This document shows positions 34,901-56,305 of a DNA stretch of 64,000 nt, piece after piece (the stretch's first letter is position 1; the number at the start of each line of letters is the position of its first letter). Under the pieces are notes generated by a model. That model was given only the letters and a program-made list of their open reading frames with translations, did not search any database and was not told the origin of the DNA. A program made the translations under genes and the position numbers. Source of the stretch: Giardia intestinalis (taxonomy: Eukaryota); assembly GCA_000002435.2 (NCBI GenBank), contig CM018791.1, one strand, 5' to 3'.

Positions 34901-34945
34901 AATTTAAATTATCAATTCAAGCTAGACAGAGTGGCCAGGGCCTTG

Positions 34946-41200: not shown

Positions 41201-42523
41201 TGTGCAGAAGGCCAAAAGCCTAATACTGCAGGAAATAAGTGCTTCGTTTGCCCAGATGCTAACTGTGAACGATGTGATCAGAGTGATGTCTGCGCTAGAT
41301 GCAGTACCGGCGCACCACTGGAGAACGGGAAATGCCCCGCCGCCACGCCGGGGTGCCACTCCAGCTGCGACGGATGCACCTCTGACGCCATGACGAACCA
41401 GGCCGACAAGTGCACTGGCTGTAAAGAGGGACGGTATCTAAAGCCAAACCCTGCAGCTGGGCAATCGGGAACGTGTCTTACTGCTGAAGAGTGCACCTCC
41501 GATAAGACGCACTTCACCAAGGAGAAGGTCGGTGACTCGAAGGGGATGTGCCTCCCATGCAGCGACGCAACACACGGCATCGCGGACTGCAAAAAGTGTG
41601 CCCTCAAAACGCTCTCTGGAGAAACAGAATCGACAGTTGTGTGCTCTGAGTGTACTGACAAATGGCTTACTCCTTCGGGCAATGCATGTTTAGAACAGTG
41701 TCCTGCTGGAACATATCCTAACGATAACAATCTTTGTACTCCTTGTCATGATACCTGTGCAGAGTGCAATGGCAATGCGGACGCTGCTTCCTGCACGGCT
41801 TGCTATCCTGGGTATTCTCTCCTGTATGGATCTGGCACAGCCGGAACATGCGTCAAGGAGTGCACTGGTGCGTTCGGCGCCAACTGTGCAGACGGGCAGT
41901 GCACGGCTGACGTGGGGGGCGCGAAGTACTGTGCCCAGTGCAAGGACGGGTACGCCCCGATCGACGGGATCTGTACAGCAGTGAAAACTGGGAGAGACGC
42001 GAGCGTATGTACGGCGGCAGGCGGGAAGTGCACCAAATGTGCAGGAGAGTATACTCTCATGTCGGGCGGGTGCTATGGTGTGGCGAAGCTTCCTGGCAAA
42101 TCGGTTTGCACGCTTGCTAACAATGGAAAGTGTACTATGTGTGCTGCAAATAGCCAGGCACCTGTGCAAGATAAGTGTCCGGAGTGCTCTGAAGGCTGTG
42201 CAAAATGCAATGATTCTAATGCCTGCACTGAATGCCTTCCTGGATACTATAAGAACAAGAGCAGCGCTTGTATACCATGCAGCAAAGATAGCACACCAAT
42301 CACTGGCGTGCCTAATTGCGTAAGCTGTGCTCCTCCAGCTGGTGGCAATGGCGGTCCTGTCCTCTGTTATCTCATGAAAGGTGCCGACAACACCGGCGGA
42401 AGCACGAACAAGAGCGGCCTTAGCACAGGCGCCATCGCGGGCATTTCCGTCGCTGTGATTGTTGTTGTAGGAGGCCTTGTGGGCTTCCTTTGCTGGTGGT
42501 TCCTCTGTAGAGGAAAAGCGTAG
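38264..42523 (+). CDS. vsp: variant-specific surface protein (VSP) with internal tandem repeats
   Basis: Signal peptide MLLGIVLLCAAVLA. More than 100 CXXC motifs, and a GGCY motif (…YTLMSGGCYGV…). One C-terminal transmembrane helix (GAIAGISVAVIVVVGGLVGFLCWWFL) is followed by the invariant VSP tail CRGKA and the stop. About 14.8 identical 64-aa repeats (KCTRCDPAGNTPFLMETTPDGGEGTCVGDCTQTPGYYGDASDDQNKKCKKCNAACAACSGAEAT). The VSP extended polyadenylation signal lies 7 nt after the stop. Confidence 0.9.
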   Translation: MLLGIVLLCAAVLAKECVPQISGCAECDESTGTKCTRCDPAGNTPFLMETTPDGGEGTCVGDCTQTPGYYGDASDDQNKKCKKCNAACAACSGAEATKCTRCDPAGNTPFLMETTPDGGEGTCVGDCTQTPGYYGDASDDQNKKCKKCNAACAACSGAEATKCTRCDPAGNTPFLMETTPDGGEGTCVGDCTQTPGYYGDASDDQNKKCKKCNAACAACSGAEATKCTRCDPAGNTPFLMETTPDGGEGTCVGDCTQTPGYYGDASDDQNKKCKKCNAACAACSGAEATKCTRCDPAGNTPFLMETTPDGGEGTCVGDCTQTPGYYGDASDDQNKKCKKCNAACAACSGAEATKCTRCDPAGNTPFLMETTPDGGEGTCVGDCTQTPGYYGDASDDQNKKCKKCNAACAACSGAEATKCTRCDPAGNTPFLMETTPDGGEGTCVGDCTQTPGYYGDASDDQNKKCKKCNAACAACSGAEATKCTRCDPAGNTPFLMETTPDGGEGTCVGDCTQTPGYYGDASDDQNKKCKKCNAACAACSGAEATKCTRCDPAGNTPFLMETTPDGGEGTCVGDCTQTPGYYGDASDDQNKKCKKCNAACAACSGAEATKCTRCDPAGNTPFLMETTPDGGEGTCVGDCTQTPGYYGDASDDQNKKCKKCNAACAACSGAEATKCTRCDPAGNTPFLMETTPDGGEGTCVGDCTQTPGYYGDASDDQNKKCKKCNAACAACSGAEATKCTRCDPAGNTPFLMETTPDGGEGTCVGDCTQTPGYYGDASDDQNKKCKKCNAACAACSGAEATKCTRCDPAGNTPFLMETTPDGGEGTCVGDCTQTPGYYGDASDDQNKKCKKCNAACAACSGAEATKCTRCDPAGNTPFLMETTPDGGEGTCVGDCTQTPGYYGDASDDQNKKCKKCNAACAACSGAEATKCTRCDPAGNTPFLMETTPDGGEGTCVGDCTQTPGYYGDASDDQNKKCKKCAEGQKPNTAGNKCFVCPDANCERCDQSDVCARCSTGAPLENGKCPAATPGCHSSCDGCTSDAMTNQADKCTGCKEGRYLKPNPAAGQSGTCLTAEECTSDKTHFTKEKVGDSKGMCLPCSDATHGIADCKKCALKTLSGETESTVVCSECTDKWLTPSGNACLEQCPAGTYPNDNNLCTPCHDTCAECNGNADAASCTACYPGYSLLYGSGTAGTCVKECTGAFGANCADGQCTADVGGAKYCAQCKDGYAPIDGICTAVKTGRDASVCTAAGGKCTKCAGEYTLMSGGCYGVAKLPGKSVCTLANNGKCTMCAANSQAPVQDKCPECSEGCAKCNDSNACTECLPGYYKNKSSACIPCSKDSTPITGVPNCVSCAPPAGGNGGPVLCYLMKGADNTGGSTNKSGLSTGAIAGISVAVIVVVGGLVGFLCWWFLCRGKA
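38366..41202 (+). repeat. tandem repeat, 192-bp unit x ~14.8 copies, apparently 100% identical, GC-rich, in frame inside the VSP CDS
   Basis: Period 192 nt. Identical alternative-frame ORFs recur at 38503, 38695, … 40999. Repeat identity begins at about 38366 (tgcacgcgctgcgac) and breaks at 41203 (tgT instead of tgC). Confidence 0.9.
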
Positions 42524-42529
42524 ATGTGT

Positions 42530-42544
42530 ACTTAGGTAGTAAAC
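42530..42544 (+). promoter_or_regulatory. VSP-type extended polyadenylation signal ACTTAGGTAGTAAAC
   Basis: An exact match to the Giardia VSP 3' consensus ACTYAGRTAGTRAAY, containing the core AGTAAAC poly(A) signal, starts 7 nt after the TAG stop at 42521-42523. Confidence 0.8.
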
Positions 42545-43390
42545 GTATCCACGTGGTGCAGTGAGCCGCGGTGACGCTTGAGCTTCCAGTGCAGATTGTT
42601 CATTAGATAGCCATGTGTCACTCTTTCAGCGAGTGGTAGCTATTCAGTAAGAGTTCACGGTGATCGTAGTCTTCCAGCTCTCTTCACGCAGTGGAACTAC
42701 CGCCCCTATTTGATAAGTGACAAGATCAAGCGTGTCACAGTGTCTGGCCAGAATGAAAACAGGTTATGCATAAGCGAGTGACAATAGCTGCTAAACCAGC
42801 TTTTAGGATGTCTGGTAATCGCTGTATTCAGAACACAGCAATCTGAAGCAATTGCTACTCTCACAATGCTAACCCAGTTTAGAGAATCAACGTTAGCTCA
42901 CCTATGTTTGAAGCATTGCCAGAGTGCGGACTCAATCCGTTACTTTTCCATCGGTTTCCGTTATGCCATGCTCTTCAAAATGAGCAAGTTATTTGCTCCA
43001 GCTATTCCTAGCAGATGTCCCCGACTGGCTATATCTTTATCCTTCGCTAACAGATCCACCAACAAAGGCACATCCCTCTTACTGTTTAGGATTACCAATG
43101 CGTTGCTGCTTTATCACTTTTCACTGACCAGCCCTTTGATAGTGTTGGAGAAGGCTTTACTTGTTGGTTACTGCAACAATCTGCCAAGTGTACATACCAT
43201 GCAGCGGAGTGCTTCTTCTGTAGCCTTGTGCTGTGCTATTCCTACACTAGCCTAAGCATTGTTTTTATCTTGTGTCGAGAGTATCGCATTATCTATTCTC
43301 GAAGACTCCAGGTCCTGACAAAGTACACACCAGTAAACCACCTCTCCACAGCGAGTTATCCCAGCAACCAGCCCAAAAAACCTCGCCTTC

Positions 43391-44035
43391 ATGTTTGTCG
43401 TTGCAGCCAAGCGCTGCTCCACCTCCGAGGAAGGGGGACTCGAGACGTTCATCGGCCGCCAGATCGACGCCGCAAAGGCGCCTGCAAGGGCACATGTACT
43501 CGTGCGATCCGGTACGGATGCTACATTGCTTAAACAGACAGCCCTAGCTGAAAACAAAGCAGGATCTATGGACGTAGGATGTTACCATACGAATCCACTC
43601 ATAATCCCAGCTAAGCAGAGCTCTAACGCATATCTTTCTACAATTCACTTTCCTCCTGACTCTAGTCGAGAGCCCGAATTGAAAAGGTCTTATCAATCGA
43701 ATCCCACAGCTTCTCTGCGCATCTATACTCCCAATTATTCTACAAGTACACTTGATATACGTTCCGAAAAGACACATAAGCAAGCTTCAAATTCAGCCTT
43801 ACAACCTGTACTCCCAAAGAGTGCTAAGCGGTGGGCTATTCAGCGTAACGGAGAAGGTAAAAGAGACCCTGACTCAACGCGACTTGGTCTAAATGTCCCC
43901 GCCGGCACATCAGCTCTTGAGCTCAAAACTAAGGAAGAACTGTTGTTGTACTTAAACGATGTAGAACAACGCCTCAAGTCAGCTCTGGATGACTGCCTCC
44001 CGGCTCTGATGGAGTCCACGCCCAATGTAAATTAA
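43391..44035 (+). CDS. hypothetical protein (214 aa), weakly supported
   Basis: An ATG-initiated ORF in a region otherwise covered by overlapping short ORFs on both strands. No recognised domain, so it may not be coding. Confidence 0.25.
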   Translation: MFVVAAKRCSTSEEGGLETFIGRQIDAAKAPARAHVLVRSGTDATLLKQTALAENKAGSMDVGCYHTNPLIIPAKQSSNAYLSTIHFPPDSSREPELKRSYQSNPTASLRIYTPNYSTSTLDIRSEKTHKQASNSALQPVLPKSAKRWAIQRNGEGKRDPDSTRLGLNVPAGTSALELKTKEELLLYLNDVEQRLKSALDDCLPALMESTPNVN

Positions 44036-44069: not shown

Positions 44070-47000
44070 ATGTCTGCCCCGCCTGATTCTGCGTTTGCTA
44101 CTATACTCACCCCGACTGCGCTAGGCTCCATCAACCAAGAGGTCCGTGACGCTATTATGGCCCTCCAGAGTGAGTTGGAGAGTGAAAGAGAACGGGCCAG
44201 GAAGTTCGAGAATCAAGTTGCGGTCCTCTCTAGCAACGATCCCAGTGGGCTCTACAATAAATACATAGACATGGAAACTACGAGCGAACTGCTCAAGCAG
44301 GCCGTTCAGAAGGCTATCGAGGAGCGGGAGGCGCTAGAGAAACAGTATCAGAGTCTCAGAGCGGACTTCAGCTCACTTCAGGCGGATCTCGCAGCCAAGG
44401 AGGAGACACTACGGTTTCTAACGGACGGCAACGATGCCGCTAAGCAGCTGTCTATGGCCAATTCGGAGATCGCCGCCTTAAAGCTTGAAATATCAGATTT
44501 GGACGGTAACTTGAAACGCCTTACAAATGATGCGGAGAGGTTGCGCGGTGAATGCGAAGATCTCCGCGGAGAGAATGAGAACTTGAAGAATGCGCTCCAT
44601 CGTGTAGACGAGACCATGACAAATATCCGCAGCCACCAGGATAGCACAGCACCTGGCTCGACACACGGAAGTGCCTATGATGGTAACGAATTCTACAGGC
44701 CGCCGACGGGCAGGGATACCAAGTCTGATGACACCGATGCACCAGATTACCAGAAGCTGTACTTACAACAGAGCGATCAGATCTCGTCTCTTCAAGCAGA
44801 GCTTGAGAAGCTTAGATACCTTGCTAATCCCGATGACCAGTACAGCAGTAACATTGCGTCTTTGAATTACCAGGTGCACAAGCTGTTCGAGGATAATAAG
44901 AAGAGCCAGGTACGTATCAGCGAACTCACTGCTCAAAAGGAAGCCAGCGATGCGATAATTCACAGCCTGGAACAAGAGCTTGTTCACCTTCGCTCCGGAT
45001 CTGCTGCTGGATCTGCTGACCAGGCAGAGTTAAGTAACCTTCGAAACAAGCTGACGGCGACGGAAATAGAGCTTCGTTCTAAGAAACAAGAGGTCGAGAC
45101 TGCACGAAGCGAGAAGAATGCCATGGGGGCGGACTATTACGCACTCCAAGCTGAAATAGAGCAATACAAGAAGCTAGAGCACGATCTAAGCGTAGATGTG
45201 ACGCTTCTCCGCCAGCAGTTGGCTGAAGCGCGCGGGCAGGCTCCCGAAACAGGTGCTCTCCAGGCAGAGCTTGGTAATCTTCGTCAACTTTCTAATCGTC
45301 TCGAGCAAGAACTTCTTGCGCTCCGAAAAGCTCTTGGGAGCACTGGTATCACTGGGGTCGAGATTCAACTTAAGCGCAAGGACATAGAGATCGCTCGCTT
45401 GAATGAACGGGTCGAGCTACTTCTCAATACGTCTCCGGAGGCTGGCGATACCGTTGATAATCTCTCACGAAGATTGATGAATGTTCAGGAGGACCTCAAG
45501 ACCAAGGAACAGTTGCTTTCGAACTACGAAAACCACCTGACTGCAATGAACGGAGTGACACCGGATAAAATCGAGGAACTGACCTCTCAGATCAACACGC
45601 TAACTGCGCAGAACAGCGAGTTCGCTCATATGTTAAGCCAGCAAGGCCGCGGTCAGGAGGTCGAGATCATTGAAGGAAAGAATGCACGAATCAAAGAGTT
45701 GGAGGACGCAATCAAATCTTACAAATCTATAATTGACAATCTCGTAACCGCCAACGTTGCGTCAAATAAAGAGGTCAGCCAGATGAGTGAGGCCCTTGTT
45801 CTTCATGAGCAGACTGTCGCATCTCTCGCTGAATCTCTGCAGACAGGAATGGCCCTGAGGCTCGTGAATGCTCCATCAGATCAGCAAGCGCCAGCTACTA
45901 TTGGGGGCGATGCTCTTCCACTAGTAGTGCCAGATGAATATAAGATTCCGGATGAGGTCAAGCAGAGCTCCGATCCCAAGGTTCTGCGTGATGCGCTTCA
46001 AGCGACAGAGCAGATTATAGCCAAACTTTACGATGAAAATGTATCCAAGACACATGACATCGAGCAACTTCATGATGCTTTGAAGTCTCACGAGCACGCA
46101 CTCGTAAGCATCAGGGAGGCTAACTTAGCGAAGGATCAGGAAATCGACCAGCTCAATGATGCGTTAGCTCACCAGGAAAAGACAGTTGGGTCTCTTGTTG
46201 CCACACTTTCACCCCGATTGGGAAATTCGGCCATCCGTGACCGGGATGGGCTCATTCAGATGGGCAGCCCGGTCTATGATTACAGTGACATGCCCCCATC
46301 AGAGGCTGAGTTGGAGATGCTTAGAGAAGCTGTGAAGCATGCAGAAGATACGATCGCTGCTATGCGTGAGGCCAACGCCGCCAAAGACAAAGAGATTGAA
46401 GAACTTGGTCAGGCCCTAGCTCTGCAGGAGCAGACTGTGACCTCACTCTGCCAAACACTTTCTCCCAGTTTTACCGTGGGACCTGGAGCTGTTTCTTCTG
46501 AAGATGAGGGTCCGCTTGACAACCGCATCAAAGTGCCCCCTGAGACCTTGGAGAAGCTCCGGGACCTTGAGCACGAGAACGAGAAACTTAGGCACGACAT
46601 GCAGTTGCTTCAGAACCTTGAGAAGTACCTTCCAGGCGGTCATGTTTACGAGGAAAACGTGGAGAAAGGCGACGCCGGTGCTAATATGGCTTACTTACTT
46701 GCACACAAGGACGTCGAGCTGGAGAACCTCAACACAGAGCTTAAAGACCAGCAGGATGAGATAAAGCGTCTCAAGGAGGCTATGTTCTCGCGCGAGGAAG
46801 TCATCGCTAAAGTTTCTTACATCGATGCCAACAAGTCCAAGGAAATTGAAGACCTCCACGAGGCTATGCGAAAACAGGAGGAGATCGTTCAGAACCTCTG
46901 CGCTTCCCTGTCTCCAGATCTTACTGCAGCCATGGCGATGCAGCCGCGAAGTGGAGATGCCCCTGACGCTGATGATGCGAGACCTAAGTACAACATGGAG

Positions 47001-47642
47001 GAGCTTATTGCGGAGTTGCAGAAGAAGATCTCCGAGCTGGTGGGCGCTGAGCGCGTAGCCGAAAAAGACGCAGAGATCGACCGCCTCAAGAAGCAGCTGG
47101 CTTATCAGGAGAACCCAATTCTCGAACGCACCGCTATTAACGAACTTATGGAAAAGGAGACACACATCAAGAAGCTCCAAGATGTTATTGAGCGCCAAGA
47201 CAGGGTTATCGATGAGCTTAAAAACACTGTGATCCATCGCGAAAATGAAATAAACAACATGTCCAGTGCAAAGGCCAAGATAGAGCACGTCCTAGACCTG
47301 CAGGAGAAGAGTGGCGAGGCATCGAGGGCGAAACTTACAAACCTTTCAGAAGCATTGGCCAAACAAGAGAATCTGGTTGACCGCCTGTTGAATTGTCTCT
47401 CACCAAGCCAGCGCGAAACGTTCCTCAAAGAGGAGGAAGAGAGGAAGAAGCTGAAGGCAGCACGTGAGGAGGAGTTGGCCAATACAATCCGCGATCTCCA
47501 GGAACAGCTTGACCGGGCCAAGAATGAGGGAGGATCTACTAAGGAGGCGAGTGCGCTTCTTACGAAGGCGTCGGGCAAGATGATCCAATGGTTCAAGGAG
47601 CGCCCTAAGGACATGCCGAACGCCCTGGATATTTTTTCTTGA
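44070..47642 (+). CDS. long coiled-coil protein with about six internal 45-aa repeats
   Basis: ATG in an AAAAAATG context. Coiled-coil heptads run almost throughout. The recurrent motif is [AN]xxK[DS]xEI[DE]xLxxALxxQExxVxSLxxxLSP (e.g. ANAAKDKEIEELGQALALQEQTVTSLCQTLSP; DANKSKEIEDLHEAMRKQEEIVQNLCASLSP). Confidence 0.6.
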   Translation: MSAPPDSAFATILTPTALGSINQEVRDAIMALQSELESERERARKFENQVAVLSSNDPSGLYNKYIDMETTSELLKQAVQKAIEEREALEKQYQSLRADFSSLQADLAAKEETLRFLTDGNDAAKQLSMANSEIAALKLEISDLDGNLKRLTNDAERLRGECEDLRGENENLKNALHRVDETMTNIRSHQDSTAPGSTHGSAYDGNEFYRPPTGRDTKSDDTDAPDYQKLYLQQSDQISSLQAELEKLRYLANPDDQYSSNIASLNYQVHKLFEDNKKSQVRISELTAQKEASDAIIHSLEQELVHLRSGSAAGSADQAELSNLRNKLTATEIELRSKKQEVETARSEKNAMGADYYALQAEIEQYKKLEHDLSVDVTLLRQQLAEARGQAPETGALQAELGNLRQLSNRLEQELLALRKALGSTGITGVEIQLKRKDIEIARLNERVELLLNTSPEAGDTVDNLSRRLMNVQEDLKTKEQLLSNYENHLTAMNGVTPDKIEELTSQINTLTAQNSEFAHMLSQQGRGQEVEIIEGKNARIKELEDAIKSYKSIIDNLVTANVASNKEVSQMSEALVLHEQTVASLAESLQTGMALRLVNAPSDQQAPATIGGDALPLVVPDEYKIPDEVKQSSDPKVLRDALQATEQIIAKLYDENVSKTHDIEQLHDALKSHEHALVSIREANLAKDQEIDQLNDALAHQEKTVGSLVATLSPRLGNSAIRDRDGLIQMGSPVYDYSDMPPSEAELEMLREAVKHAEDTIAAMREANAAKDKEIEELGQALALQEQTVTSLCQTLSPSFTVGPGAVSSEDEGPLDNRIKVPPETLEKLRDLEHENEKLRHDMQLLQNLEKYLPGGHVYEENVEKGDAGANMAYLLAHKDVELENLNTELKDQQDEIKRLKEAMFSREEVIAKVSYIDANKSKEIEDLHEAMRKQEEIVQNLCASLSPDLTAAMAMQPRSGDAPDADDARPKYNMEELIAELQKKISELVGAERVAEKDAEIDRLKKQLAYQENPILERTAINELMEKETHIKKLQDVIERQDRVIDELKNTVIHRENEINNMSSAKAKIEHVLDLQEKSGEASRAKLTNLSEALAKQENLVDRLLNCLSPSQRETFLKEEEERKKLKAAREEELANTIRDLQEQLDRAKNEGGSTKEASALLTKASGKMIQWFKERPKDMPNALDIFS

Positions 47643-47663
47643 GTAGCACTTGGCGCTGATCGT

Positions 47664-47670
47664 GTTTACT
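47664..47670 (-). promoter_or_regulatory. AGTAAAC polyadenylation signal for the RdRP gene
   Basis: The minus-strand sequence reads AGTAAAC about 33 nt downstream of the RdRP stop, matching the canonical Giardia poly(A) signal AGTRAAY. Confidence 0.5.
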
Positions 47671-47702
47671 CGTTCAAGCGTGTAAATATATTTTCTCTGT
47701 AG

Positions 47703-50700
47703 CTAAGAGCGTACATTCACAAAAGGGATTATCTCAGGACTCAGGGCATGCATGTATTGGTGCCTGCACCGAGCAAAGGCCTCGCAGAGCTCAGGGCCGC
47801 AGATGTCCCAGACAAGCTGGCATATCTGCAACGCCTCAACATACCTTCTCTGAACAAAGGGATAAGATCTAGCAAATCGGGATGATCTGAGATTGGGAGA
47901 CTCGTTGATTTTTACCAACGAGCTGCGTGTAAAGAAGATAGGCTGCAAGGAAATATCAATACCGCTATGACTATCTTTGATGGAGAGTTTTCCCGTGGGG
48001 AGCAGTGTATGTGTTGGCCGCATCTTTTGGGGGAAGATAGATGCTTGCTGGTTGTGTGTAGGAGATGCATCGTCTAATACGCTACTAGATGACTCTCTGT
48101 AGCTCCCTGTGCTATTCTCACTGATCTTCTCTGTGCCAGTTTCACTTTGCTCACTGGGAGCGGGCGTATCTTCAGAGAGGATTGTAGAAAAAGTCTTATC
48201 AGATGTCGAATAATTAGAAGAGGGCGTTGTACCACTGGAAGTATTAGTAGCGTTAACACATGTCTGGATCATACTGTTAAGTTGCTCCTGGAGGACCAAA
48301 ACATCTTCCCCATTAAAGGTCTTTATGATCAAATCTTCGTGGATCATGCAGAGCGGCTCTTCTATACCGGCTTTGGCGGATAGATTCCTTGAAACTGAAA
48401 TGCGGTATGATTCAGAAAATGTATTTTGCTTAGTCAAAGCAGAAACAGGCACCTCCTGCAAGTCTCGGGGCTTTGATTGCAATAGTGTCAGCTGTGCGTT
48501 AATAAAAGATTTCCACGCGTTTTCCCATAGCCATACGGTGTTATCGTTTAAACTAGGCCTAGAGAATGCAATAGTTGGATTGGTCATGGACACAGGCCAA
48601 TTGCAAGGGAGCTTGTTGACGAAAAGGTGATGTGCGAGACACATATCATTGCCATTCTCGTTGGAAGACTCATGTGAAAGTGGTACTACAGAAGGCAGCG
48701 TAGAGACCTTTTTCTTGGTAAGTGATTTGAGGCACTTGCTAATGTCAGAAAAGGCTGGAACGCTAGAAAACCCGCCCAGCTTGCACTGAGCTTCTTTTTC
48801 TTCTTCTGATAACGGAATACCTGTAACAGAATATCTATTGCATAGAATAATTGGGGGAGGAGTCTGGGTTTTGTATGAAGGCAGATCTGTATGCCTGCTC
48901 CATACCAAACGGTCGTTTGAAGCCACAGATATTCCAATTAAGGCACGGTTGGTAGCTATGCTCTCGAGATACTGGACAACTGAACCCTCAGCATCAGACT
49001 TGTAAGCAAAGTGCATCTGACTGTCAAGAAGTGATGGAAAAGCAGTTCTGGATCTGTGTTCTCTATCTCTACGAGGAGTATCCGGCTTGTACTCGCTAGA
49101 TGATGTTTGTGACATGTCATCCGTGCCTTCCGATGCACCGGTTGACCAAGTTGAAGGGCCGGAAGCAGAGTTAGCGGAGCTCGGTGTCGCTTTCGCTGGG
49201 GTTCTCGACCTACTATCTGAGTAAACATCCTTAAGTTCTAATGTCCCATACATCTGCTCACAGTACCGTATCGTAGGTAGCAGTTGTAGTAATGCGTAAG
49301 TATAAAATAAATAATACAGGATGACAGCTCGCGCCCGACGCTCCTCATCCGATACGCCCTTGCGCATCTGTGACGAATACACCGACGTCATCCGTGAGTA
49401 ACCAGAGCCCTTAATGTCTGTGTGAAACTTCCCTCTTCGCGAGAGGGAATTGAAGTCTGCAATCACAGAACCAAAGATATGTACTGAGATATCTATCTGA
49501 CGTCGAAACACACTGTTTTGTATTCCCAGAAGCATAAGAGAATCCTTTGTAGAGACCTCAGTAAGCTGAGATAAATCAAGAGAGAGGGAGGCTAGAGAGG
49601 CTGCCATGCTGGTTTCGATACTATCTTTAATTTTGATTAGGTTTAGCGGCAGAACTGTGGACACTGGGCGGAGAGTATCCACAATAGCCTGGAAGAATGG
49701 TTTCTCTTTGTGCTCAATGCACTTTCGCAGTATGCTGACAGAATTATTTTCTCCTGCTGCTAATAGATTATAGATGGATCCGGCTACAGATTTAGAGTGG
49801 TAAATTATCTTATTCTTAAGTCTGAGCCAGTCGTTATCGGTAGGATAGAGCAGCCCAGTTATGGTGTTTCCTATCATCCAGTTAGGTACGAGGGAGACTC
49901 GTGAGAAGGGAAAGTTGGGGTGCGCCTGCGTGTCTGTAGCCTGGTTAGAGACTTGGGAGGCTCTCTTTCGAGAGCTAATAAGTTGAGCTAAAGCAGCGTG
50001 TGCACTTGCAATTGCCGAGAGAGACATCTTAGCCTTGGGCTTTTTTGTATGCACATGTTCGGCAACCTCATTAGTCGCTACATCCTTACGGCCAGGAGAG
50101 TTTTGGTCCAACTTATAGCCGTGTTTCTGAAGAGATATTCGCTTAGTATTGTTTTTTGCACGTGCCTTAGAGTATGAGCTTGATGAGAGTGGATTGACGA
50201 GAGAGCTTTCACGTAATTCTGGTTCCAATCCATGCTTTAAGCTGACGTGCTGAGGCGATTGCACTTTAAGATGTGGTTCAGGTTCATCAATAGAACCATC
50301 CGATCCTTCCGTATCGCTGAAAATGAATCTCAACGATCCATCTTCGCCACGCGAGCCATCACTTTCATCGGAAGCGGTGCTTGAAGAATTGGTTGATTCG
50401 TCTGGCTGGGTTGAGGCAGAGTCTGCTAGCTCATTAAGGCACGTTGCGTATACATCTGTAGTATAGTGTGTTATCTCATCAATCCTAGTGCCGCAGTCGC
50501 TTAGAAAGTCCGAAGACTCACTCAGATAATTTTCTTCCAGGTCTTCCTGTGATGATTGACACAGCTTTTTGAATGATGGGGCAAGAAGTTTGCGCACGCA
50601 CGATACTGCTTTTCGACGCCAGCCAGTCTTGTCTGCATCTATTGCAAAGAAGAACTGCCGCCCCAGTTCCATAGTTAGTGGGTGGCTATAGCCAAGCATA

Positions 50701-53700
50701 TCCCCAACTATTTTAAGTTCAGACCCTATCCTTCCAATCGTCTTATCAAAAAATGCACCGGATACCCACTCAAGAATGAATGCTTCTCTGAGTATTAGCT
50801 CTACTGGTTCCATATTGATTTTAGAGTAAAGTAGCTTTTTGCTCTCTAAATCGACACCCCGCGAGCATTGGTCTTTGAGGACTGCGCTGACGTAACTTTT
50901 CCTAAGCAAACATGATAGATTGTAAAACTGTTCTAATTTCAGCTCTTGTAAAAATGGCCAATTTGATGTGCCACTGTCTATGGTATCACTCTCAATCCGT
51001 AGCAGATTGCCTAAGCCTGCCTCGATGTCCCTTAGATCTAAAGCATGTGCATCTATTTCTCCCGGATTTGCCTGAAAAGAAGCTGGCTCATATTCGCGTT
51101 GAATGGTCCCTAAAAGGGAGGCGTCCCATGAGACCCAATAGATGTCACCATCCAGGTCGCTGCCTGAAAGGCAATCTGTCATCGGACGACCTTCATAATA
51201 CTTTGGAAAGCAAATCACTCCTCTGTACATTCCCCTGATAGCTTCTTGTGCTACAAAGGATGGCAATACGGGCTTTAAATTCTGCCTGGACGCTTCCCGC
51301 CTGAGCCTTTCAAAGATGTTGACTGCGTGGTAAATTCGGACATCGCCACGATAAAAGCAGGGGTTTTTTGCTACGACTACACGACCCTCGACACAAGAGA
51401 TATTTAGTCCAACAGCAATATCAGATATCTGTAAGTCCAGATCTGGTGGTAGTAACGCTTCCTGCTGTGTGTCATTAGACATTGCCTTAAGATGTGTTGC
51501 TGCGGCCCATTTAGAGATGGATAGCGGCTCCTGCAACCCGACATACACCTCCCCCTCCTTCAAAAGGTCAAAACAATCGTAAACTCCAACGAATATCCGC
51601 GAATCTGGTACATAAAACCGCATATTTGCTTTCATACTACGTAGCTGCATCATTTGCAGCTTCATAAGAAGAAACTGAAGACAGGGCTCTGTAATGTCCA
51701 CGCCAGCCATCAGCATTTGGAGAATAAGCTTCCCGGAAGAACTATGAGATGCTCTACTGACCAACTGATAAAGATCTGCTTGGTGTCTGCAGCGGTCCAC
51801 GGGCTCCAGAAACAGAAGCGTCTTTTGCAAATCTTGATAAACCAGATTGAGAAAGACATCATCCGGAACGCCCATCTCTGATAGTAGCACAATAATCTGC
51901 ATATTTATCATCCCCTTTGACGGCTGCGCCACTCTGAGGATTTCTAGCGTCTGCTGGGTCTCAGTGGGATTAGGGATGCTGAACTTAACTTGAGACTTAT
52001 GGAACAGGATGGTCCTGGGTGGCAGAAGAGCGTTTAGAATGAGCACTCCCTTTGTGCCGGCCCAGCGCATTTGCACTGCAGAAGGTACCTGAATCAAATT
52101 TGAAGCTGTCTTCAAATTTGGTTGGAGATGTGGTACAGTGTGTTCACTGTCCTCGTTAGTATCAGCGAATCCATTATCATAGTATGTTTCTGTATCCTTA
52201 TGCAGTTGCTCGATCTTAAGCTTGTCCAGACAAAGGGCTATCTCGAGCATGAGATCGTAGCTTATCTCTCCTGCGCCATCAGTAAAAACGTAGCCATTAT
52301 ATTCCTTATCTGATACAATCTGCACATCCTCTTCCCTTACCTTTATCGTAGGTAAGGACTTACCAAAACATAGGCCTCTTCGTGTGCATATCTTGCAGGC
52401 CTGGACCTCCTTAATATCCCCGAGCCAATTTATTGCAAACTCGCGGAAGATAACAGCACGTGGACGCATAAACTTGTTCAGAATAGAGTCCAAATGGTCG
52501 ATGCTGGGAAGAATTGGTGATACGTAAAACGTGTAAAGCTTGGAGCTCAGATTGGCGTAAAAGGACTGATAGTATTTAAAGTCTCTGATAAAAGCAGTAA
52601 AGCGCTGCATATATCTATACATTAATTCATAGTCTGGTGCCCTAATAAACCAGCACTGTTGCTCCTTGAGCTGTCCACTCCCTTGTGCATAGTAAACAAA
52701 GACTGAACCACCGAGATAAACACCAGTTGTCAATATATTATAGATTGCTCGTTTTAATACAGATGAATGGGACGAGCGTGCAAATCTCCTGTTGGTTAAC
52801 GAAGGAAATCCGGCCCTAGCAATCGAGTGCTGTATTCTCTCTTCGATCATGACGGGCTTCTTATGTACCTTATGCCTTCGTTGAGCTGGTGATCCTGTGC
52901 GGTCAGGTAACTCAGCTCCATGTCTTCTGCTGTAGGGGCTCACAGATCTCTGCGGTGGTAACGAGGACGATGATCGTGGAACGGCAAACTCTACTCGTAA
53001 GAGGTGGCGCGAACCGAACTCACGAAGATGCCGAGAAGACATTTCAAGAATGGGTGTCTGGGGTAGAAGCAGCGCATAGACCCGCTCTTTTGTTGCAATT
53101 ATGACTATGATAACTTTGAAGACTAAGGCACTGATATTTTTTGGGTTTGGGGCACCGAGAACAGACCTGAGGCGAAGAGGCGAGTGGATGTGGGGGCCAG
53201 ACATGGTTGCAAAGTGATCGAGATGAGTAAATAAACCCAGCTCAAACAGATTGGAATGCGAAGCGTCTGTTCTGTCATCGGTATATACCGAGAAGACGCT
53301 ACTATACGAGTCCTTGCTTACGGTGCTGGTATTGATGTAAATTAGAGCTTGTTTGTGCTCTCCTTCCAACTGTCCATTGTGTAGTACAACTAGGTCGTCA
53401 AGCACTTCTTGTGCATAGATGGGATCAACTTTATGACACTCTGTGACCAGGTAATTGTACGCAGCTAATAGTAGCGAAATCTCGTCTTCATCATTCTCTA
53501 TTGCTGAGACTTGTAAATCGTACAATTGGATAATTATCCGCGATTGATCTAGCGCCCTAAATCCGGCTGAGTTGAGATGGAACTGGTCAAGTGCGTATCT
53601 CAGCGGAAATGATAGACTAAGCAGTGGAAAATCAAAGCCTCGTGGAGGAAAGCACCCCGATGGCGCAATGTATGGATATTGAGCATGTAGTTCGGACGCA

Positions 53701-53708
53701 GAGGGCAT
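47703..53708 (-). CDS. RNA-dependent RNA polymerase (cellular RDR/QDE-1-type RdRP)
   Basis: The 2001-aa protein carries the cellular RdRP catalytic signature …CLSGSDLDGDIYWVSWD… (DxDGD). Upstream of it is the conserved …GRVVVAKNPCFYRGDVRIYHAVN… (KNPC-hPGD-hR). ATG at 53708. A 51-bp spacer separates it from the divergent gene at 53760. Confidence 0.8.
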   Translation of the reverse strand: MPSASELHAQYPYIAPSGCFPPRGFDFPLLSLSFPLRYALDQFHLNSAGFRALDQSRIIIQLYDLQVSAIENDEDEISLLLAAYNYLVTECHKVDPIYAQEVLDDLVVLHNGQLEGEHKQALIYINTSTVSKDSYSSVFSVYTDDRTDASHSNLFELGLFTHLDHFATMSGPHIHSPLRLRSVLGAPNPKNISALVFKVIIVIIATKERVYALLLPQTPILEMSSRHLREFGSRHLLRVEFAVPRSSSSLPPQRSVSPYSRRHGAELPDRTGSPAQRRHKVHKKPVMIEERIQHSIARAGFPSLTNRRFARSSHSSVLKRAIYNILTTGVYLGGSVFVYYAQGSGQLKEQQCWFIRAPDYELMYRYMQRFTAFIRDFKYYQSFYANLSSKLYTFYVSPILPSIDHLDSILNKFMRPRAVIFREFAINWLGDIKEVQACKICTRRGLCFGKSLPTIKVREEDVQIVSDKEYNGYVFTDGAGEISYDLMLEIALCLDKLKIEQLHKDTETYYDNGFADTNEDSEHTVPHLQPNLKTASNLIQVPSAVQMRWAGTKGVLILNALLPPRTILFHKSQVKFSIPNPTETQQTLEILRVAQPSKGMINMQIIVLLSEMGVPDDVFLNLVYQDLQKTLLFLEPVDRCRHQADLYQLVSRASHSSSGKLILQMLMAGVDITEPCLQFLLMKLQMMQLRSMKANMRFYVPDSRIFVGVYDCFDLLKEGEVYVGLQEPLSISKWAAATHLKAMSNDTQQEALLPPDLDLQISDIAVGLNISCVEGRVVVAKNPCFYRGDVRIYHAVNIFERLRREASRQNLKPVLPSFVAQEAIRGMYRGVICFPKYYEGRPMTDCLSGSDLDGDIYWVSWDASLLGTIQREYEPASFQANPGEIDAHALDLRDIEAGLGNLLRIESDTIDSGTSNWPFLQELKLEQFYNLSCLLRKSYVSAVLKDQCSRGVDLESKKLLYSKINMEPVELILREAFILEWVSGAFFDKTIGRIGSELKIVGDMLGYSHPLTMELGRQFFFAIDADKTGWRRKAVSCVRKLLAPSFKKLCQSSQEDLEENYLSESSDFLSDCGTRIDEITHYTTDVYATCLNELADSASTQPDESTNSSSTASDESDGSRGEDGSLRFIFSDTEGSDGSIDEPEPHLKVQSPQHVSLKHGLEPELRESSLVNPLSSSSYSKARAKNNTKRISLQKHGYKLDQNSPGRKDVATNEVAEHVHTKKPKAKMSLSAIASAHAALAQLISSRKRASQVSNQATDTQAHPNFPFSRVSLVPNWMIGNTITGLLYPTDNDWLRLKNKIIYHSKSVAGSIYNLLAAGENNSVSILRKCIEHKEKPFFQAIVDTLRPVSTVLPLNLIKIKDSIETSMAASLASLSLDLSQLTEVSTKDSLMLLGIQNSVFRRQIDISVHIFGSVIADFNSLSRRGKFHTDIKGSGYSRMTSVYSSQMRKGVSDEERRARAVILYYLFYTYALLQLLPTIRYCEQMYGTLELKDVYSDSRSRTPAKATPSSANSASGPSTWSTGASEGTDDMSQTSSSEYKPDTPRRDREHRSRTAFPSLLDSQMHFAYKSDAEGSVVQYLESIATNRALIGISVASNDRLVWSRHTDLPSYKTQTPPPIILCNRYSVTGIPLSEEEKEAQCKLGGFSSVPAFSDISKCLKSLTKKKVSTLPSVVPLSHESSNENGNDMCLAHHLFVNKLPCNWPVSMTNPTIAFSRPSLNDNTVWLWENAWKSFINAQLTLLQSKPRDLQEVPVSALTKQNTFSESYRISVSRNLSAKAGIEEPLCMIHEDLIIKTFNGEDVLVLQEQLNSMIQTCVNATNTSSGTTPSSNYSTSDKTFSTILSEDTPAPSEQSETGTEKISENSTGSYRESSSSVLDDASPTHNQQASIFPQKMRPTHTLLPTGKLSIKDSHSGIDISLQPIFFTRSSLVKINESPNLRSSRFARSYPFVQRRYVEALQICQLVWDICGPELCEAFARCRHQYMHALSPEIIPFVNVRS

Positions 53709-53759
53709 AAGCCCAGATTATCCTGTTTTGTCTTAAAAAATCTAGATAGAGCGAAGCGC

Positions 53760-56237
53760 ATGAATGAGGATGACGGGCTATCGAGTCTAACGGTGCTTGT
53801 CCTATCTGATTTGAGCGGCGACGATCGCAAACTGACACTTCTATTAACAGAATTGATCAGGAGGCGGCAACTTATCGATTGCATCTTTGTCACCGGAAGC
53901 TTAACAAACGGAGACCCACGGCAGTTTAACAATACTGACTACATAGCTGAAGTTCTAGTGCGCTACAAAGTCGTCCTGCAGACACTCCGGCAGATCTCCC
54001 CATTAGTTTATTTTGTCCAGGGAGCCAATGACCCCGTGCTGACAATAAAAAAGCTATCATCTGGCACTCAAGCAGAGAGTATGGTATTAATGAGGTACCC
54101 AGATAATAACGAGTGGTGCATGGACGTCTCCTTCCAGGCAGTGAGACTCGCATCAAATCTGGTTATTGTTGGCTCTTCAGGGTCCAGCGCATCACTAGAT
54201 TCGTGTGCCAGAGAAGCATATGATAATGGTGCCGACATTCTATGGTCAGATACAATGAAGCAGGAGCTGACTGACACAGACGACCAGAAAGAGACAACCC
54301 CGTCCTCCTCTTCTTCTTCCCCGACTTCATCTTCTACCAGTCTACTACAACGGCTTCTAAACTTTGAGCTCCAGGTTACACTGTTTGATGTCTTGCGATC
54401 AGCACTTCTGGAGTTGAACACAGTTCAACCGTCTTCAGAAGCATTTCTGCATAATATACCTGTGACTAACACAGTGCAATCTGTTCTAAAGGACGTAGAC
54501 CCTAGGCTTTTCTACACGACACGGACGCCTGACGAACTCCGTGCTCTAATTACATATAAGCACAGCACAATGGCTGAACCGTTCAGACATAGGCATATGC
54601 CCAGCGGCTCCAACAGCTGCGTACAAAGGCAATCCCAGCATCCACCCTATCCTTTTGGCCCTTTCTTCTATCCTTATGTTCTTTATGAAGGCCTAAGTAA
54701 CTTTAACTCCTACACAACTGACGCCCTGACACTGGCGATTCAGTATGCTCAATCATTCAATGATTATGTGGTAGACACATCTGCTGAGAGAGATTCATTT
54801 TTGACTTATAGCAGAAGATCTGCTGCGTGGATGAATACACACCTTCTACCCCAGCTTTATGAACCCCTGCCAGCAAAGCTTTCTCGCCTTAGTGATGTGT
54901 CTGGACAAGCGGCTCGAAGCCTTCGCCCCACGTTTTCTTCAGACACCACAACAGGGCGCGTCAATCTCTCCCTGCACTATTCTCTTGACATACTACAGGC
55001 GCATACTACTTTTCATGACGAACCAATGGCAATCTTCATTAAATTCCTTTTGAATCCCAGTTTGTTAAACCCTACAGAGAGCATGTACATGCGGATTTAT
55101 GGGCCATTGTTCTGTCATAGCGTAGACTCTTTGCCAGGCAGCGCCTTCCAGAAGCTAGTAGCCTCATCACCTATTGAAGCAGATCATTTTGTGTCTTCCA
55201 CCGCAGTGTATTCCGATGAGGGCACAGATATCTTATCCCTAGCAACGCCGGCCAATAATGCCATGGACGATATGCTCAAGAAAGAGTGGATGATGAAACA
55301 CACTATTGTAGCTATTAGAGATGGAACTTCTCACGATTTGCATGATCTTTACAAGGAAACGTGTGATATCGTTGATGAATTCTCCTCATCAAGCGACGCA
55401 TCTGCACACAGCACGTCAAAGTATATTCGCTCCATGTCCACGCATTACGTAAAGACTCTGTCGAACCCTTCTAGCACCACTGCTTCACTTGTATCTAGTT
55501 TTACAGACGAGGGTGCTGTGAGTACTGTAGATAGTAGTTCCTCTGCAAAACTTAGCTTCTCCCATTCGCCAGTACTAGCTCCCATCACTCTGCTGGCTAA
55601 ACCTCGTTCCAACTTTGTCTCTCCGAGCAACGTACAGAACTATTCGTCCTACTTAAAGCCAAATAGAATAAAGGAGTCTCCACAAAGTCCCTCCAGCTGC
55701 CTACCAAAGTCACTATCTGTGCTCCCCAAGCTTGGCGAGTCTGCTCTATTCAAAAAAGAGTCTCAAACTAAAGATAAGGGCATGCGAGGCTGGCTTAAGT
55801 TAGCTCCAAATTTATATGATTATTTGCCAAAATCTTGGACAGATTGGTCCAACCTCATGCAATGCACGAGCAACGAATTGTCACAGCTCTATTCATTCAA
55901 TGCGTCAAAGGATTCCGTAATTCTCTTAACACATCAGGGGCCAGCTGGATCGCCCACCAGCTATGAGTTCGATCGAGACAAAGGAGAGCTCCTCGAAACA
56001 GGGTCATATGGTTTGCGTGAGCTCCATTGTGGGAGGCTGAATGTCTTACTCCATGTCCATGGTCGCGCAAGAAGGCCTCTAGTACGACTTTATGAAGTAG
56101 ATGATGTCATGGTATTCAACCCCGGTACATTCCGCGATGGGCTCTATGGTATATTGGAGCTCAAGAGAAAGGCCGGCATCTGGCAAGTGTCTTCAGCCTC
56201 AGTCCATAAGCTCATGGCAGAGATTGGGAGTGCTTGA
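53760..56237 (+). CDS. hypothetical protein with degenerate calcineurin-like metallophosphoesterase motifs
   Basis: Split motifs are present: VLVLSDLSGDD (motif I-like, with the His missing), IFVTGSLTNGD (motif II-like), VYFVQGANDP (GNH[DE]-like), LLTHQGPAG and LHVHGRARRP (GHxH-like). The protein ends …VFNPGTF…. About 600 aa of unassigned sequence lies between the N- and C-terminal motif groups. Confidence 0.35.
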   Translation: MNEDDGLSSLTVLVLSDLSGDDRKLTLLLTELIRRRQLIDCIFVTGSLTNGDPRQFNNTDYIAEVLVRYKVVLQTLRQISPLVYFVQGANDPVLTIKKLSSGTQAESMVLMRYPDNNEWCMDVSFQAVRLASNLVIVGSSGSSASLDSCAREAYDNGADILWSDTMKQELTDTDDQKETTPSSSSSSPTSSSTSLLQRLLNFELQVTLFDVLRSALLELNTVQPSSEAFLHNIPVTNTVQSVLKDVDPRLFYTTRTPDELRALITYKHSTMAEPFRHRHMPSGSNSCVQRQSQHPPYPFGPFFYPYVLYEGLSNFNSYTTDALTLAIQYAQSFNDYVVDTSAERDSFLTYSRRSAAWMNTHLLPQLYEPLPAKLSRLSDVSGQAARSLRPTFSSDTTTGRVNLSLHYSLDILQAHTTFHDEPMAIFIKFLLNPSLLNPTESMYMRIYGPLFCHSVDSLPGSAFQKLVASSPIEADHFVSSTAVYSDEGTDILSLATPANNAMDDMLKKEWMMKHTIVAIRDGTSHDLHDLYKETCDIVDEFSSSSDASAHSTSKYIRSMSTHYVKTLSNPSSTTASLVSSFTDEGAVSTVDSSSSAKLSFSHSPVLAPITLLAKPRSNFVSPSNVQNYSSYLKPNRIKESPQSPSSCLPKSLSVLPKLGESALFKKESQTKDKGMRGWLKLAPNLYDYLPKSWTDWSNLMQCTSNELSQLYSFNASKDSVILLTHQGPAGSPTSYEFDRDKGELLETGSYGLRELHCGRLNVLLHVHGRARRPLVRLYEVDDVMVFNPGTFRDGLYGILELKRKAGIWQVSSASVHKLMAEIGSA

Positions 56238-56305
56238 CAGCTACTCTAAGGCGCATTGCCTTTGTTGTCATACCAATGTCAAAAAAGTTCTTCTGAATTT
56301 AAAAA

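What the first reader, a model, noticed from the sequence alone, without database searches (positions are those of the whole stretch)
47703..53708. RNA-dependent RNA polymerase gene about 5 kb from the repeat VSP
The 2001-aa ORF has the cellular RdRP catalytic motif (DLDGDIYWVSWD) and the upstream KNPC…GD…R motif, so it is an RDR-type enzyme. In Giardia the RNAi pathway (RdRP, Dicer, Argonaute) has been implicated in silencing all but one VSP. Finding the RdRP gene in a convergent arrangement one gene away from a VSP is therefore a notable physical linkage, though it may be coincidental. The RdRP also has its own canonical AGTAAAC poly(A) signal.
Basis: partly seen in the sequence, partly recalled or inferred. 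Interest (0 to 1): 0.5.

Follow-up and report, generated by a model that had tools for sequence, protein, structure and literature searches.

The report
Known Giardia RdRP gene near VSP
This is the already known RNA-dependent RNA polymerase gene of Giardia intestinalis WB. Its position about 5 kb from a surface-antigen (VSP) gene looks like ordinary inherited gene order, not a functional coupling.

Summary
ORF 47703..53708 (-) encodes a 2001-aa cellular-type RdRP (Pfam PF05183, E=1e-83). It is 100% identical to the annotated Giardia intestinalis WB RdRP, GL50803_102515. Both catalytic motifs are present and align to Arabidopsis RDR2. The AGTAAAC signal lies 33 nt after the stop, and a published 3'-end dataset lists one cleavage site and a 46-nt 3' UTR.

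The repeat VSP (GL50803_137752, 38264..42523 +) is convergent and 5,179 bp away. Two genes lie between them, not one.

The suggested synteny test gave a mixed answer. A VSP sits at this position in assemblages A-I, A-II and B. In E (P15) it is present but inverted in the draft contig. Two more divergent Giardia lineages have no VSP here: the flanking genes abut and the RdRP motifs are intact.

With 133 VSPs in 12.6 Mb, about 10% of genes should have a VSP this close. Read-through from the RdRP would have to pass four AGTRAA signals and two genes. The published RNAi model has the enzyme acting in trans on all VSP mRNAs.

Verdict: a known gene whose linkage is inherited synteny and most likely coincidental. 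Low interest.

The parts
47703..53708 (-). RdRP coding sequence, 2001 aa plus stop (GL50803_102515; KAE8303209.1 / XP_001710276.1 / AAM73688.1)
   Evidence: ORF list and translation. 100% identical to the annotated Giardia RdRP. Gene id.
50562..53060 (-). Pfam PF05183 RdRP domain, aa 217-1049
   Evidence: E=1.2e-83, 282 bits; aligns to A. thaliana RDR2 (7eu0), E=6e-21.
51336..51368 (-). KNPCFYRGDVR motif (aa 781-791)
   Evidence: Aligned to KNPCLHPGDIR of RDR2. Identical in assemblages A, E, B and divergent lineage X1.
51123..51158 (-). Catalytic DLDGDIYWVSWD motif (aa 851-862; the DxDGD metal-binding aspartates)
   Evidence: Aligned to DLDGDQFFVSWD of RDR2. Identical in A, E and B; DLDGDLYWVSWD in lineage X1.
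47706..50561 (-). C-terminal ~950 aa of the RdRP with no recognisable domain; Ser-rich stretches; less conserved than the catalytic half
   Evidence: No Pfam hit at E<=0.1. Identity per 100 aa between A and B is 42-74% here, against 66-91% in the N-terminal half.
47664..47670 (-). RdRP poly(A) signal AGTAAAC, starting at 3' UTR nt 33
   Evidence: AGURAA is the Giardia poly(A) signal (PMC9014877).
47657..47702 (-). RdRP 3' UTR, 46 nt to a single validated cleavage site. The coordinates are inferred from the published UTR length.
   Evidence: Supplemental Table 1, sheet 'Singles', of PMC9014877: GL50803_102515, utr_length 46.
44070..47642 (+). Intervening gene 2: coiled-coil protein GL50803_10167 (1190 aa). 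Its published 52-nt 3' UTR would overlap the RdRP 3' UTR by about 38 nt (47657-47694).
43391..44035 (+). Intervening gene 1: hypothetical protein GL50803_15137 (214 aa), conserved in every lineage examined
43120..43161 (-). Two minus-strand AGTRAA hexamers (43161-43156 AGTAAA; 43125-43120) in the spacer between the VSP and the 214-aa gene. A third lies at 43649-43644. Any RdRP read-through transcript would meet these before reaching the VSP.
38264..42523 (+). VSP GL50803_137752 (1419 aa), a CRP170-like VSP. It has 14.8 identical 192-bp repeats at 38366-41202, a CAATGTT initiator context, and its own AGTAAAC at 42538-42544.
53709..53759 (.). 51-bp divergent spacer between the RdRP start codon and the start of GL50803_23884 (53760..56237 +). 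Presumed shared promoter region.

Best explanation
The locus is the single, already described cellular-type RNA-dependent RNA polymerase gene of Giardia intestinalis WB (GL50803_102515).

By homology to RDR2 and QDE-1, the enzyme uses the aspartates of its DLDGD loop to copy single-stranded RNA into complementary RNA. In the published Giardia model it makes antisense RNA on VSP mRNAs. The duplexes are diced, and all but one VSP are silenced. This is a diffusible, trans-acting activity, so it does not depend on where the gene sits.

The gene lies in a compact, collinear block: 705-aa gene, VSP, 214-aa gene, coiled-coil gene, RdRP, 825-aa gene. The neighbouring VSP (GL50803_137752) is one of the many dispersed VSP genes. 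It was gained in, or before, the common ancestor of assemblages A, B and E, or else lost in the other lineages. Its nearness to the RdRP is inherited synteny with no functional coupling.

Shown here: gene identity, motifs, gene order, and the synteny pattern. Taken from the literature: RdRP activity, the knock-down phenotype, and the 3'-end position. Inferred: absence of cis coupling.
For: Identity:
- Pfam RdRP E=1.2e-83.
- 100% identity to the annotated Giardia RdRP; gene id.
- Alignment to RDR2 structures places KNPC..GD.R and DLDGD on their RDR2 counterparts.
- The motifs are invariant or nearly so in four lineages.

Trans-acting model and knock-down phenotype:
- PMC5707882 and PMC8957917.

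Synteny:
- A-II DH has the same layout and the same 5,179-bp gap (L005).
- Assemblage B GS_B has a VSP on the same strand, 6.2 kb from the RdRP 3' end (L015).
- In P15 the homologous VSP (53% identity) lies 7.8 kb away but inverted.
- In two divergent lineages (L010, L011, L019 and L012) the ortholog of the 705-aa gene is followed after 511 or 1102 bp by the 211-aa gene. There is no VSP or VSP remnant. The contig that reaches the RdRP (L010) still carries its catalytic motifs.

Chance:
- 133 VSPs plus 208 pseudo-VSPs in 12.6 Mb, spread over all chromosomes (PMC7000408).
- 1-exp(-2 x 5179 x 133 / 12.6e6) = 0.10 for one gene. The figure is about 0.24 counting pseudo-VSPs, and about 0.28 for any of the three RNAi genes.

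No read-through path:
- The RdRP mRNA has a single validated cleavage site and a 46-nt UTR.
- The median Giardia 3' UTR is 59 nt.
- Four minus-strand AGTRAA signals lie between the RdRP stop and the VSP.
Against: - A VSP has been kept at this position in three assemblages, although VSP repertoires and VSP-adjacent synteny are generally unstable (notes that synteny breaks at such families). Some constraint cannot be excluded.
- No strand-specific RNA or small-RNA data over this VSP were examined here.
- The assemblage identity of the VSP-less lineages was not verified.
- Dicer and Argonaute neighbourhoods could not be checked.
Confidence: 0.9

Rival explanations
1. Cis coupling by convergent transcription. 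Transcripts that read through the RdRP 3' end continue about 5 kb on the minus strand and become antisense RNA to VSP GL50803_137752. This would seed dsRNA or siRNA production, either for this VSP or, through sequence similarity, for the CRP170-like subfamily.
For: - The two genes are convergent in A-I, A-II and B.
- Antisense transcription and antisense poly(A) sites are common in Giardia, and some are attributed to run-through from the opposite strand (PMC3610916).
- Small RNAs map to both strands of some VSPs (PMC2817412).
Against: - The RdRP is listed with a single cleavage site 46 nt after its stop, at a canonical AGTAAA.
- Two expressed plus-strand genes and three further minus-strand AGTRAA hexamers lie in between.
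- The VSP is inverted in the P15 contig and absent in two lineages.
- The published model needs no cis antisense source.
Confidence: 0.04
2. Chromatin coupling. The VSP brings VSP-type chromatin (gene-poor, epigenetically regulated) close to the RdRP, so that RdRP expression responds to the state of the VSP locus.
For: - Regions around VSPs are reported as gene-poor and more variable.
- Epigenetic control of VSP transcription has been proposed.
- The linkage is retained in A, B and E.
Against: - The RdRP is described as constitutively expressed.
- The RdRP promoter is at the far end of the gene, about 11 kb from the VSP, in a 51-bp divergent spacer shared with another gene.
- Two ordinarily expressed genes lie in between.
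- The VSP is absent in two lineages.
- No direct data were found.
Confidence: 0.03
3. The 2001-aa ORF is not a functional RdRP. It would be a decayed or repurposed homolog, which would make any link to VSP control moot.
For: Half of the protein (aa 1050-2001) has no recognisable domain and is poorly conserved.
Against: - The ORF is intact at about 2000 aa in A, B and E.
- The catalytic motifs are conserved in every lineage examined.
- The mRNA was detected with a poly(A) tail.
- Knock-down gives a multi-VSP phenotype, according to the literature.
Confidence: 0.02

Closest known systems
Giardia intestinalis WB RdRP, GL50803_102515 (XP_001710276.1, AAM73688.1; partial AAK97084.1)
   Same: Identical sequence over all 2001 aa. 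Same neighbours in the published gene order: VSP_137752, 15137, 10167, 102515.
   Different: Nothing. This is the same gene.
Arabidopsis thaliana RDR2 (PDB 7eu0, 7roz) and other cellular RdRPs such as QDE-1 (5fsw); Pfam PF05183
   Same: Shares the RdRP domain. KNPC..GD.R and SG.DLDGD..(F/W)VSWD align residue for residue. The inferred mechanism is the same: RNA-templated RNA synthesis at the DxDGD aspartates.
   Different: - Only about 24% identity to non-Giardia homologs.
- Long insertions within the domain: 833 residues span 550 profile positions.
- An extra C-terminal region of about 950 aa with no known domain.
- No RRM was detected at the N-terminus.
Natural antisense (convergent-gene) siRNA loci, such as plant nat-siRNA pairs
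   Same: The genes are convergent. The RdRP and coiled-coil mRNAs probably overlap by about 38 nt at their 3' ends (inferred).
   Different: The VSP does not overlap any RdRP transcript. 5.2 kb, two genes and several poly(A) signals intervene. No small-RNA evidence was examined.

Membership tests
Cellular (eukaryotic) RNA-dependent RNA polymerase, RDR/QDE-1 family (Pfam PF05183) | RdRP domain profile match above the curated threshold | tested here: met
   282 bits against a gathering cutoff of 23.8, E=1.2e-83, aa 217-1049.
Cellular (eukaryotic) RNA-dependent RNA polymerase, RDR/QDE-1 family (Pfam PF05183) | Catalytic DxDGD (DbDGD) motif with three aspartates | tested here: met
   DLDGD at aa 851-855 aligns to DLDGD of RDR2. 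Conserved in four Giardia lineages.
Cellular (eukaryotic) RNA-dependent RNA polymerase, RDR/QDE-1 family (Pfam PF05183) | Upstream KNPC..GD.R motif | tested here: met
   KNPCFYRGDVR at aa 781-791 aligns to KNPCLHPGDIR of RDR2.
Cellular (eukaryotic) RNA-dependent RNA polymerase, RDR/QDE-1 family (Pfam PF05183) | Double-psi beta-barrel catalytic fold | not tested
   No structure was predicted. It is inferred only from sequence alignment to solved RDR2.
Cellular (eukaryotic) RNA-dependent RNA polymerase, RDR/QDE-1 family (Pfam PF05183) | RNA-templated RNA synthesis activity | not testable with these tools
   Reported for the Giardia enzyme by Prucca et al. 2008, as summarised in PMC5707882. Not verifiable here.
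Giardia variant-specific surface protein (the neighbouring gene) | Pfam VSP domain, CXXC-rich ectodomain, C-terminal transmembrane helix followed by CRGKA | tested here: met
   PF03302 E=2.9e-70. The sequence ends ...FLCWWFLCRGKA. Annotated as VSP GL50803_137752.
Cis natural-antisense / convergent-transcription silencing pair (RdRP transcript over the VSP) | Transcripts from the two genes overlap in antisense | tested here: not met
   - The stop codons are 5,179 bp apart.
- The published RdRP 3' UTR is 46 nt with a single cleavage site.
- Two genes and three more AGTRAA signals lie in between.
- Direct RNA data over the interval were not available.
Cis natural-antisense / convergent-transcription silencing pair (RdRP transcript over the VSP) | Arrangement conserved wherever the system operates | tested here: not met
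   Convergent in A-I, A-II and B. Inverted in the P15 contig. VSP absent in two divergent lineages that retain the RdRP-side gene order.

The most novel reading that the evidence does not exclude
The VSP kept beside the RdRP gene in assemblages A, B and E could be a cis-linked sentinel. Rare read-through or chromatin spreading would then tie RdRP output, or antisense priming of the CRP170-like VSP subfamily, to the state of this one VSP locus. The lineages without the VSP would regulate antigenic variation differently.
Probability: 0.03. Interest if true: 0.6.

Novelty: already known. Interest (0 to 1): 0.08.

Why it matters
If the linkage were functional, it would give a physical entry point into how Giardia selects one VSP for expression, which is still unresolved. 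The evidence instead indicates a known gene in an ordinary syntenic block, so it adds nothing new to that question. The useful by-products are a checked map of this locus across Giardia lineages and the correction that two genes, not one, separate the RdRP from the VSP.

Tried and rejected
- I first recalled the RdRP locus tag as GL50803_2867. A literature search found nothing for it. The supplement of PMC9014877 and PMC11427974 give GL50803_102515, so the recalled tag was dropped.\n- I suspected the repeat VSP was vspA6/CRP170, which has 195-bp repeats. Tandem Repeats Finder gives 192 bp, and PMC7332775 lists GL50803_137752 as a CRP170 homolog, not CRP170 itself.\n- I tried to verify that runs ERR3333378, ERR3333379 and ERR3333381 are the dog assemblages C and D. 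The paper gives only the project number PRJEB32663, so the assignment remains unverified. I call these lineages X1 and X2.\n- I tried to see whether Dicer (GL50803_103887) and Argonaute (GL50803_2902) are VSP-adjacent, using the gene-ordered UTR table. Neither is in the stored part of the table.\n- An Rfam scan and a tRNA scan of the whole window found nothing.\n- Pfam at E<=1 on the C-terminal 951 aa of the RdRP found no domain.\n- Short-read assemblage B contigs (L002, L013) end 714 bp past the 214-aa gene and show only a VSP-like fragment with in-frame stops. The GS_B contig L015 was needed to see the actual VSP.
Full report
**1. What is in the sequence**

The ORF list gives a single 2001-aa ORF on the minus strand at 47703..53708. 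Its translation contains VVAKNPCFYRGDVRIYHAV and SGSDLDGDIYWVSWDASLL. The first motif lies at aa 781-791 (window 51336-51368) and the second at aa 851-862 (window 51123-51158).

Pfam assigns aa 217-1049 to PF05183 (RdRP) with E=1.2e-83, 282 bits against a cutoff of 23.8. A sequence search of the PDB finds Arabidopsis RDR2 (7eu0, 7roz; E=6e-21), further RdRP chains (7w82, 7w84) and QDE-1. In the RDR2 alignment, KNPCLHPGDIR and SGGDLDGDQFFVSWD line up with the two Giardia motifs. The enzyme assignment is secure.

The remaining 951 C-terminal residues have no detectable domain.

After the TAG stop, the minus strand reads ...CGAGTAAACACG... The AGTAAAC starts at 47670, which is nt 33 of the 3' UTR.

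**2. Identity of the locus**

The protein is 100% identical to 'putative RNA-directed RNA polymerase [Giardia duodenalis]' (KAE8303209.1, XP_001710276.1, AAM73688.1). It lies on a 1.97-Mb contig of strain WB.

[quoted passage not shown] PMC11427974 names GL50803_102515 as the Giardia RdRP. The gene has been in GenBank since the early 2000s (AAK97084.1, AAM73688.1).

The published model has a constitutively expressed RdRP making antisense RNA on VSP transcripts. Dicer and Argonaute then process the duplexes. Knock-down of RdRP or Dicer gives trophozoites that express many VSPs (PMC5707882; PMC8957917).

**3. The neighbourhood**

The VSP at 38264..42523 (+) is 1419 aa. It has a Pfam VSP hit and a CRGKA tail. 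It carries 14.8 perfect copies of a 192-bp repeat. It is a homolog of CRP170, not CRP170 itself.

It is convergent with the RdRP, and the two stop codons are 5,179 bp apart. Two genes lie between them, not one:
- a 214-aa gene at 43391..44035 (+);
- a 1190-aa coiled-coil gene at 44070..47642 (+).

Both are annotated and conserved in every lineage I examined.

On its other side, the RdRP start is 51 bp from the divergently transcribed GL50803_23884. The rest of the 64-kb window contains no other VSP, no Rfam family and no tRNA.

**4.

| Lineage | Locus | VSP at this position |
|---|---|---|
| Assemblage A-II (DH) | L005 | Same order and strands, same 5,179-bp gap, 597-aa VSP |
| A-type metagenome scaffold | L004 | 531-aa VSP, same layout |
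| Assemblage B (GS_B) | L015, AHHH01000124 | Plus-strand VSP, partial at the contig end, CRGKA tail, 50% identical to the WB C-terminal part. It ends 1.9 kb before the 214-aa gene and 6.2 kb from the RdRP 3' end. A short VSP-like fragment with in-frame stops lies on the other strand in between. |
| Assemblage E (P15) | L001 | Homologous 530-aa VSP (53% identity over the non-repeat part), 7.8 kb from the RdRP 3' end, on the same strand as the RdRP, so inverted relative to WB |
| Divergent lineage X1 | L010, L011 (ERR3333381, ERR3333379); L019 (SRR17450160, 24-kb contig) | None. The ortholog of the window's 705-aa gene (34931..37048; 57% identity) is followed after 511 bp by the 211-aa gene. |
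| Divergent lineage X2 | L012 (ERR3333378) | None. The spacer is 1102 bp. No VSP, CRGKA or Cys-rich ORF. |

In P15 the VSP is bracketed by a 389-nt, 100% complementary inverted repeat (22700-23088 and 25404-25792) that runs to the contig end. This may be a real inversion or a draft-assembly artefact.

The 214-aa protein of X1 and X2 is 54-64% identical to its A, B and E orthologs. The X1 contig that reaches the RdRP (L010) keeps KNPCFYRGDVR and DLDGDLYWVSWD.

These two lineages are probably the dog assemblages C and D. I could not verify that.

So the linkage is inherited within A, B and E along with the whole block. The orientation is not fixed, and the RdRP persists without the VSP elsewhere.

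**5. Is the proximity more than chance?**

The current WB assembly has 133 VSPs and 208 pseudo-VSPs in 12.6 Mb, 'all over the chromosomes' (PMC7000408). The earlier analysis gives 8-29 vsp genes per Mb depending on chromosome (PMC2996952).

Treating VSPs as scattered points, the chance that a given gene has a VSP edge within 5,179 bp on either side is:
- 1-exp(-2 x 5179 x 133 / 12.6e6), about 0.10;
- about 0.09 if the 19 duplicated pairs are each counted once;
- about 0.24 if pseudo-VSPs are counted;
- about 0.28 for at least one of the three RNAi genes.

This is not a surprising coincidence.

**6. Is there a plausible cis mechanism?**

Giardia uses AGURAA as its poly(A) signal, with AGUAAA preferred, and the median 3' UTR is 59 nt (PMC9014877). 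That paper's table of genes with a single validated cleavage site gives these UTR lengths:
- RdRP: 46 nt. This places cleavage at about 47657, 8 nt after the AGTAAA hexamer.
- VSP: 28 nt.
- Coiled-coil gene: 52 nt.

To become antisense to the VSP, an RdRP transcript would have to ignore its own signal. It would then cross two expressed genes in antisense and pass three more AGTRAA hexamers, at 43649, 43161 and 43125.

Antisense transcription is common in Giardia (PMC3610916), so rare read-through is not excluded. Nothing in the sequence favours it. I had no RNA data for the interval.

**7. Conclusion**

The enzyme call is correct. The gene is already known. The linkage to a VSP is best explained as inherited gene order, with a prior chance of about one in ten.

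The residual novel reading is cis coupling through read-through or chromatin. It is not excluded, but I put it at a few percent.

Noticed in passing
L001:22700-23088 and L001:25404-25792 (P15 contig ACVC01000108.1): The P15 VSP homologous to the window's VSP is inverted relative to WB. It is bracketed by a 389-nt, 100% complementary inverted repeat made of the last 14 nt of the VSP CDS plus its 3' flank. The outer arm runs to the contig end. This is either a recent inversion or inverted duplication, or a draft-assembly artefact.
   Followed up: partly
window 38366-41202: The VSP repeat array (192 bp x 14.8, 100% identical) varies in copy number between records. The old WB model XP_001710273.1 is 1035 aa and the current one is 1419 aa, a difference of exactly six 64-aa units. 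DH has 597 aa, an A-type metagenome scaffold 531 aa, and P15 530 aa. The shorter figures probably reflect both real variation and collapse in short-read assemblies.
   Followed up: partly
window 38300-41359 (-) and 38304-41144 (-): Two very long antisense ORFs (1019 and 946 aa) lie opposite the VSP repeats. The region has GC 0.63 against about 0.47 elsewhere. The ORFs are most simply a by-product of a stop-free repeat unit copied 15 times.
   Followed up: no
window 47657-47694: The published 3' UTR lengths (RdRP 46 nt, coiled-coil gene 52 nt) imply that the two convergent mRNAs overlap by about 38 nt at their 3' ends. This would be a short natural antisense pair involving the RdRP's own transcript.
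   Followed up: partly
window 53709-53759: Only 51 bp separate the start codons of the RdRP (-) and GL50803_23884 (+). This implies a very compact shared or bidirectional promoter.
   Followed up: no
L015:2194-2499 (-) and L013:68-373 (-): Assemblage B carries a short Cys-rich, VSP-like fragment with in-frame stops on the opposite strand, between its VSP and the 214-aa gene. It is similar to residues 46-79 of the P15 VSP (E=7e-8). It is probably a VSP pseudogene remnant, which hints at past rearrangement at this spot.
   Followed up: partly
window 47706-50561 (-): The C-terminal 950 aa or so of the RdRP have no recognisable domain and include Ser/Thr-rich stretches. They are much less conserved than the catalytic half (as low as 42% identity between A and B per 100 aa). 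Even so, the reading frame is kept open at about 2000 aa in A, B and E.
   Followed up: partly
window 56101-59013 (+) versus 53760-56237 (+): The mechanical 970-aa ORF for the ATP-grasp / CoA-ligase protein (ADP-forming acetyl-CoA synthetase type) overlaps the end of the preceding 825-aa gene by 137 nt. The P15 ortholog is called at 902 aa, so the true start is probably a downstream ATG.
   Followed up: no
L009:5551-10189: In one metagenome scaffold (ERZ28584860) the RdRP is split into 437-aa and 1074-aa pieces. This is most likely a frameshift or assembly error, not a real disruption.
   Followed up: no
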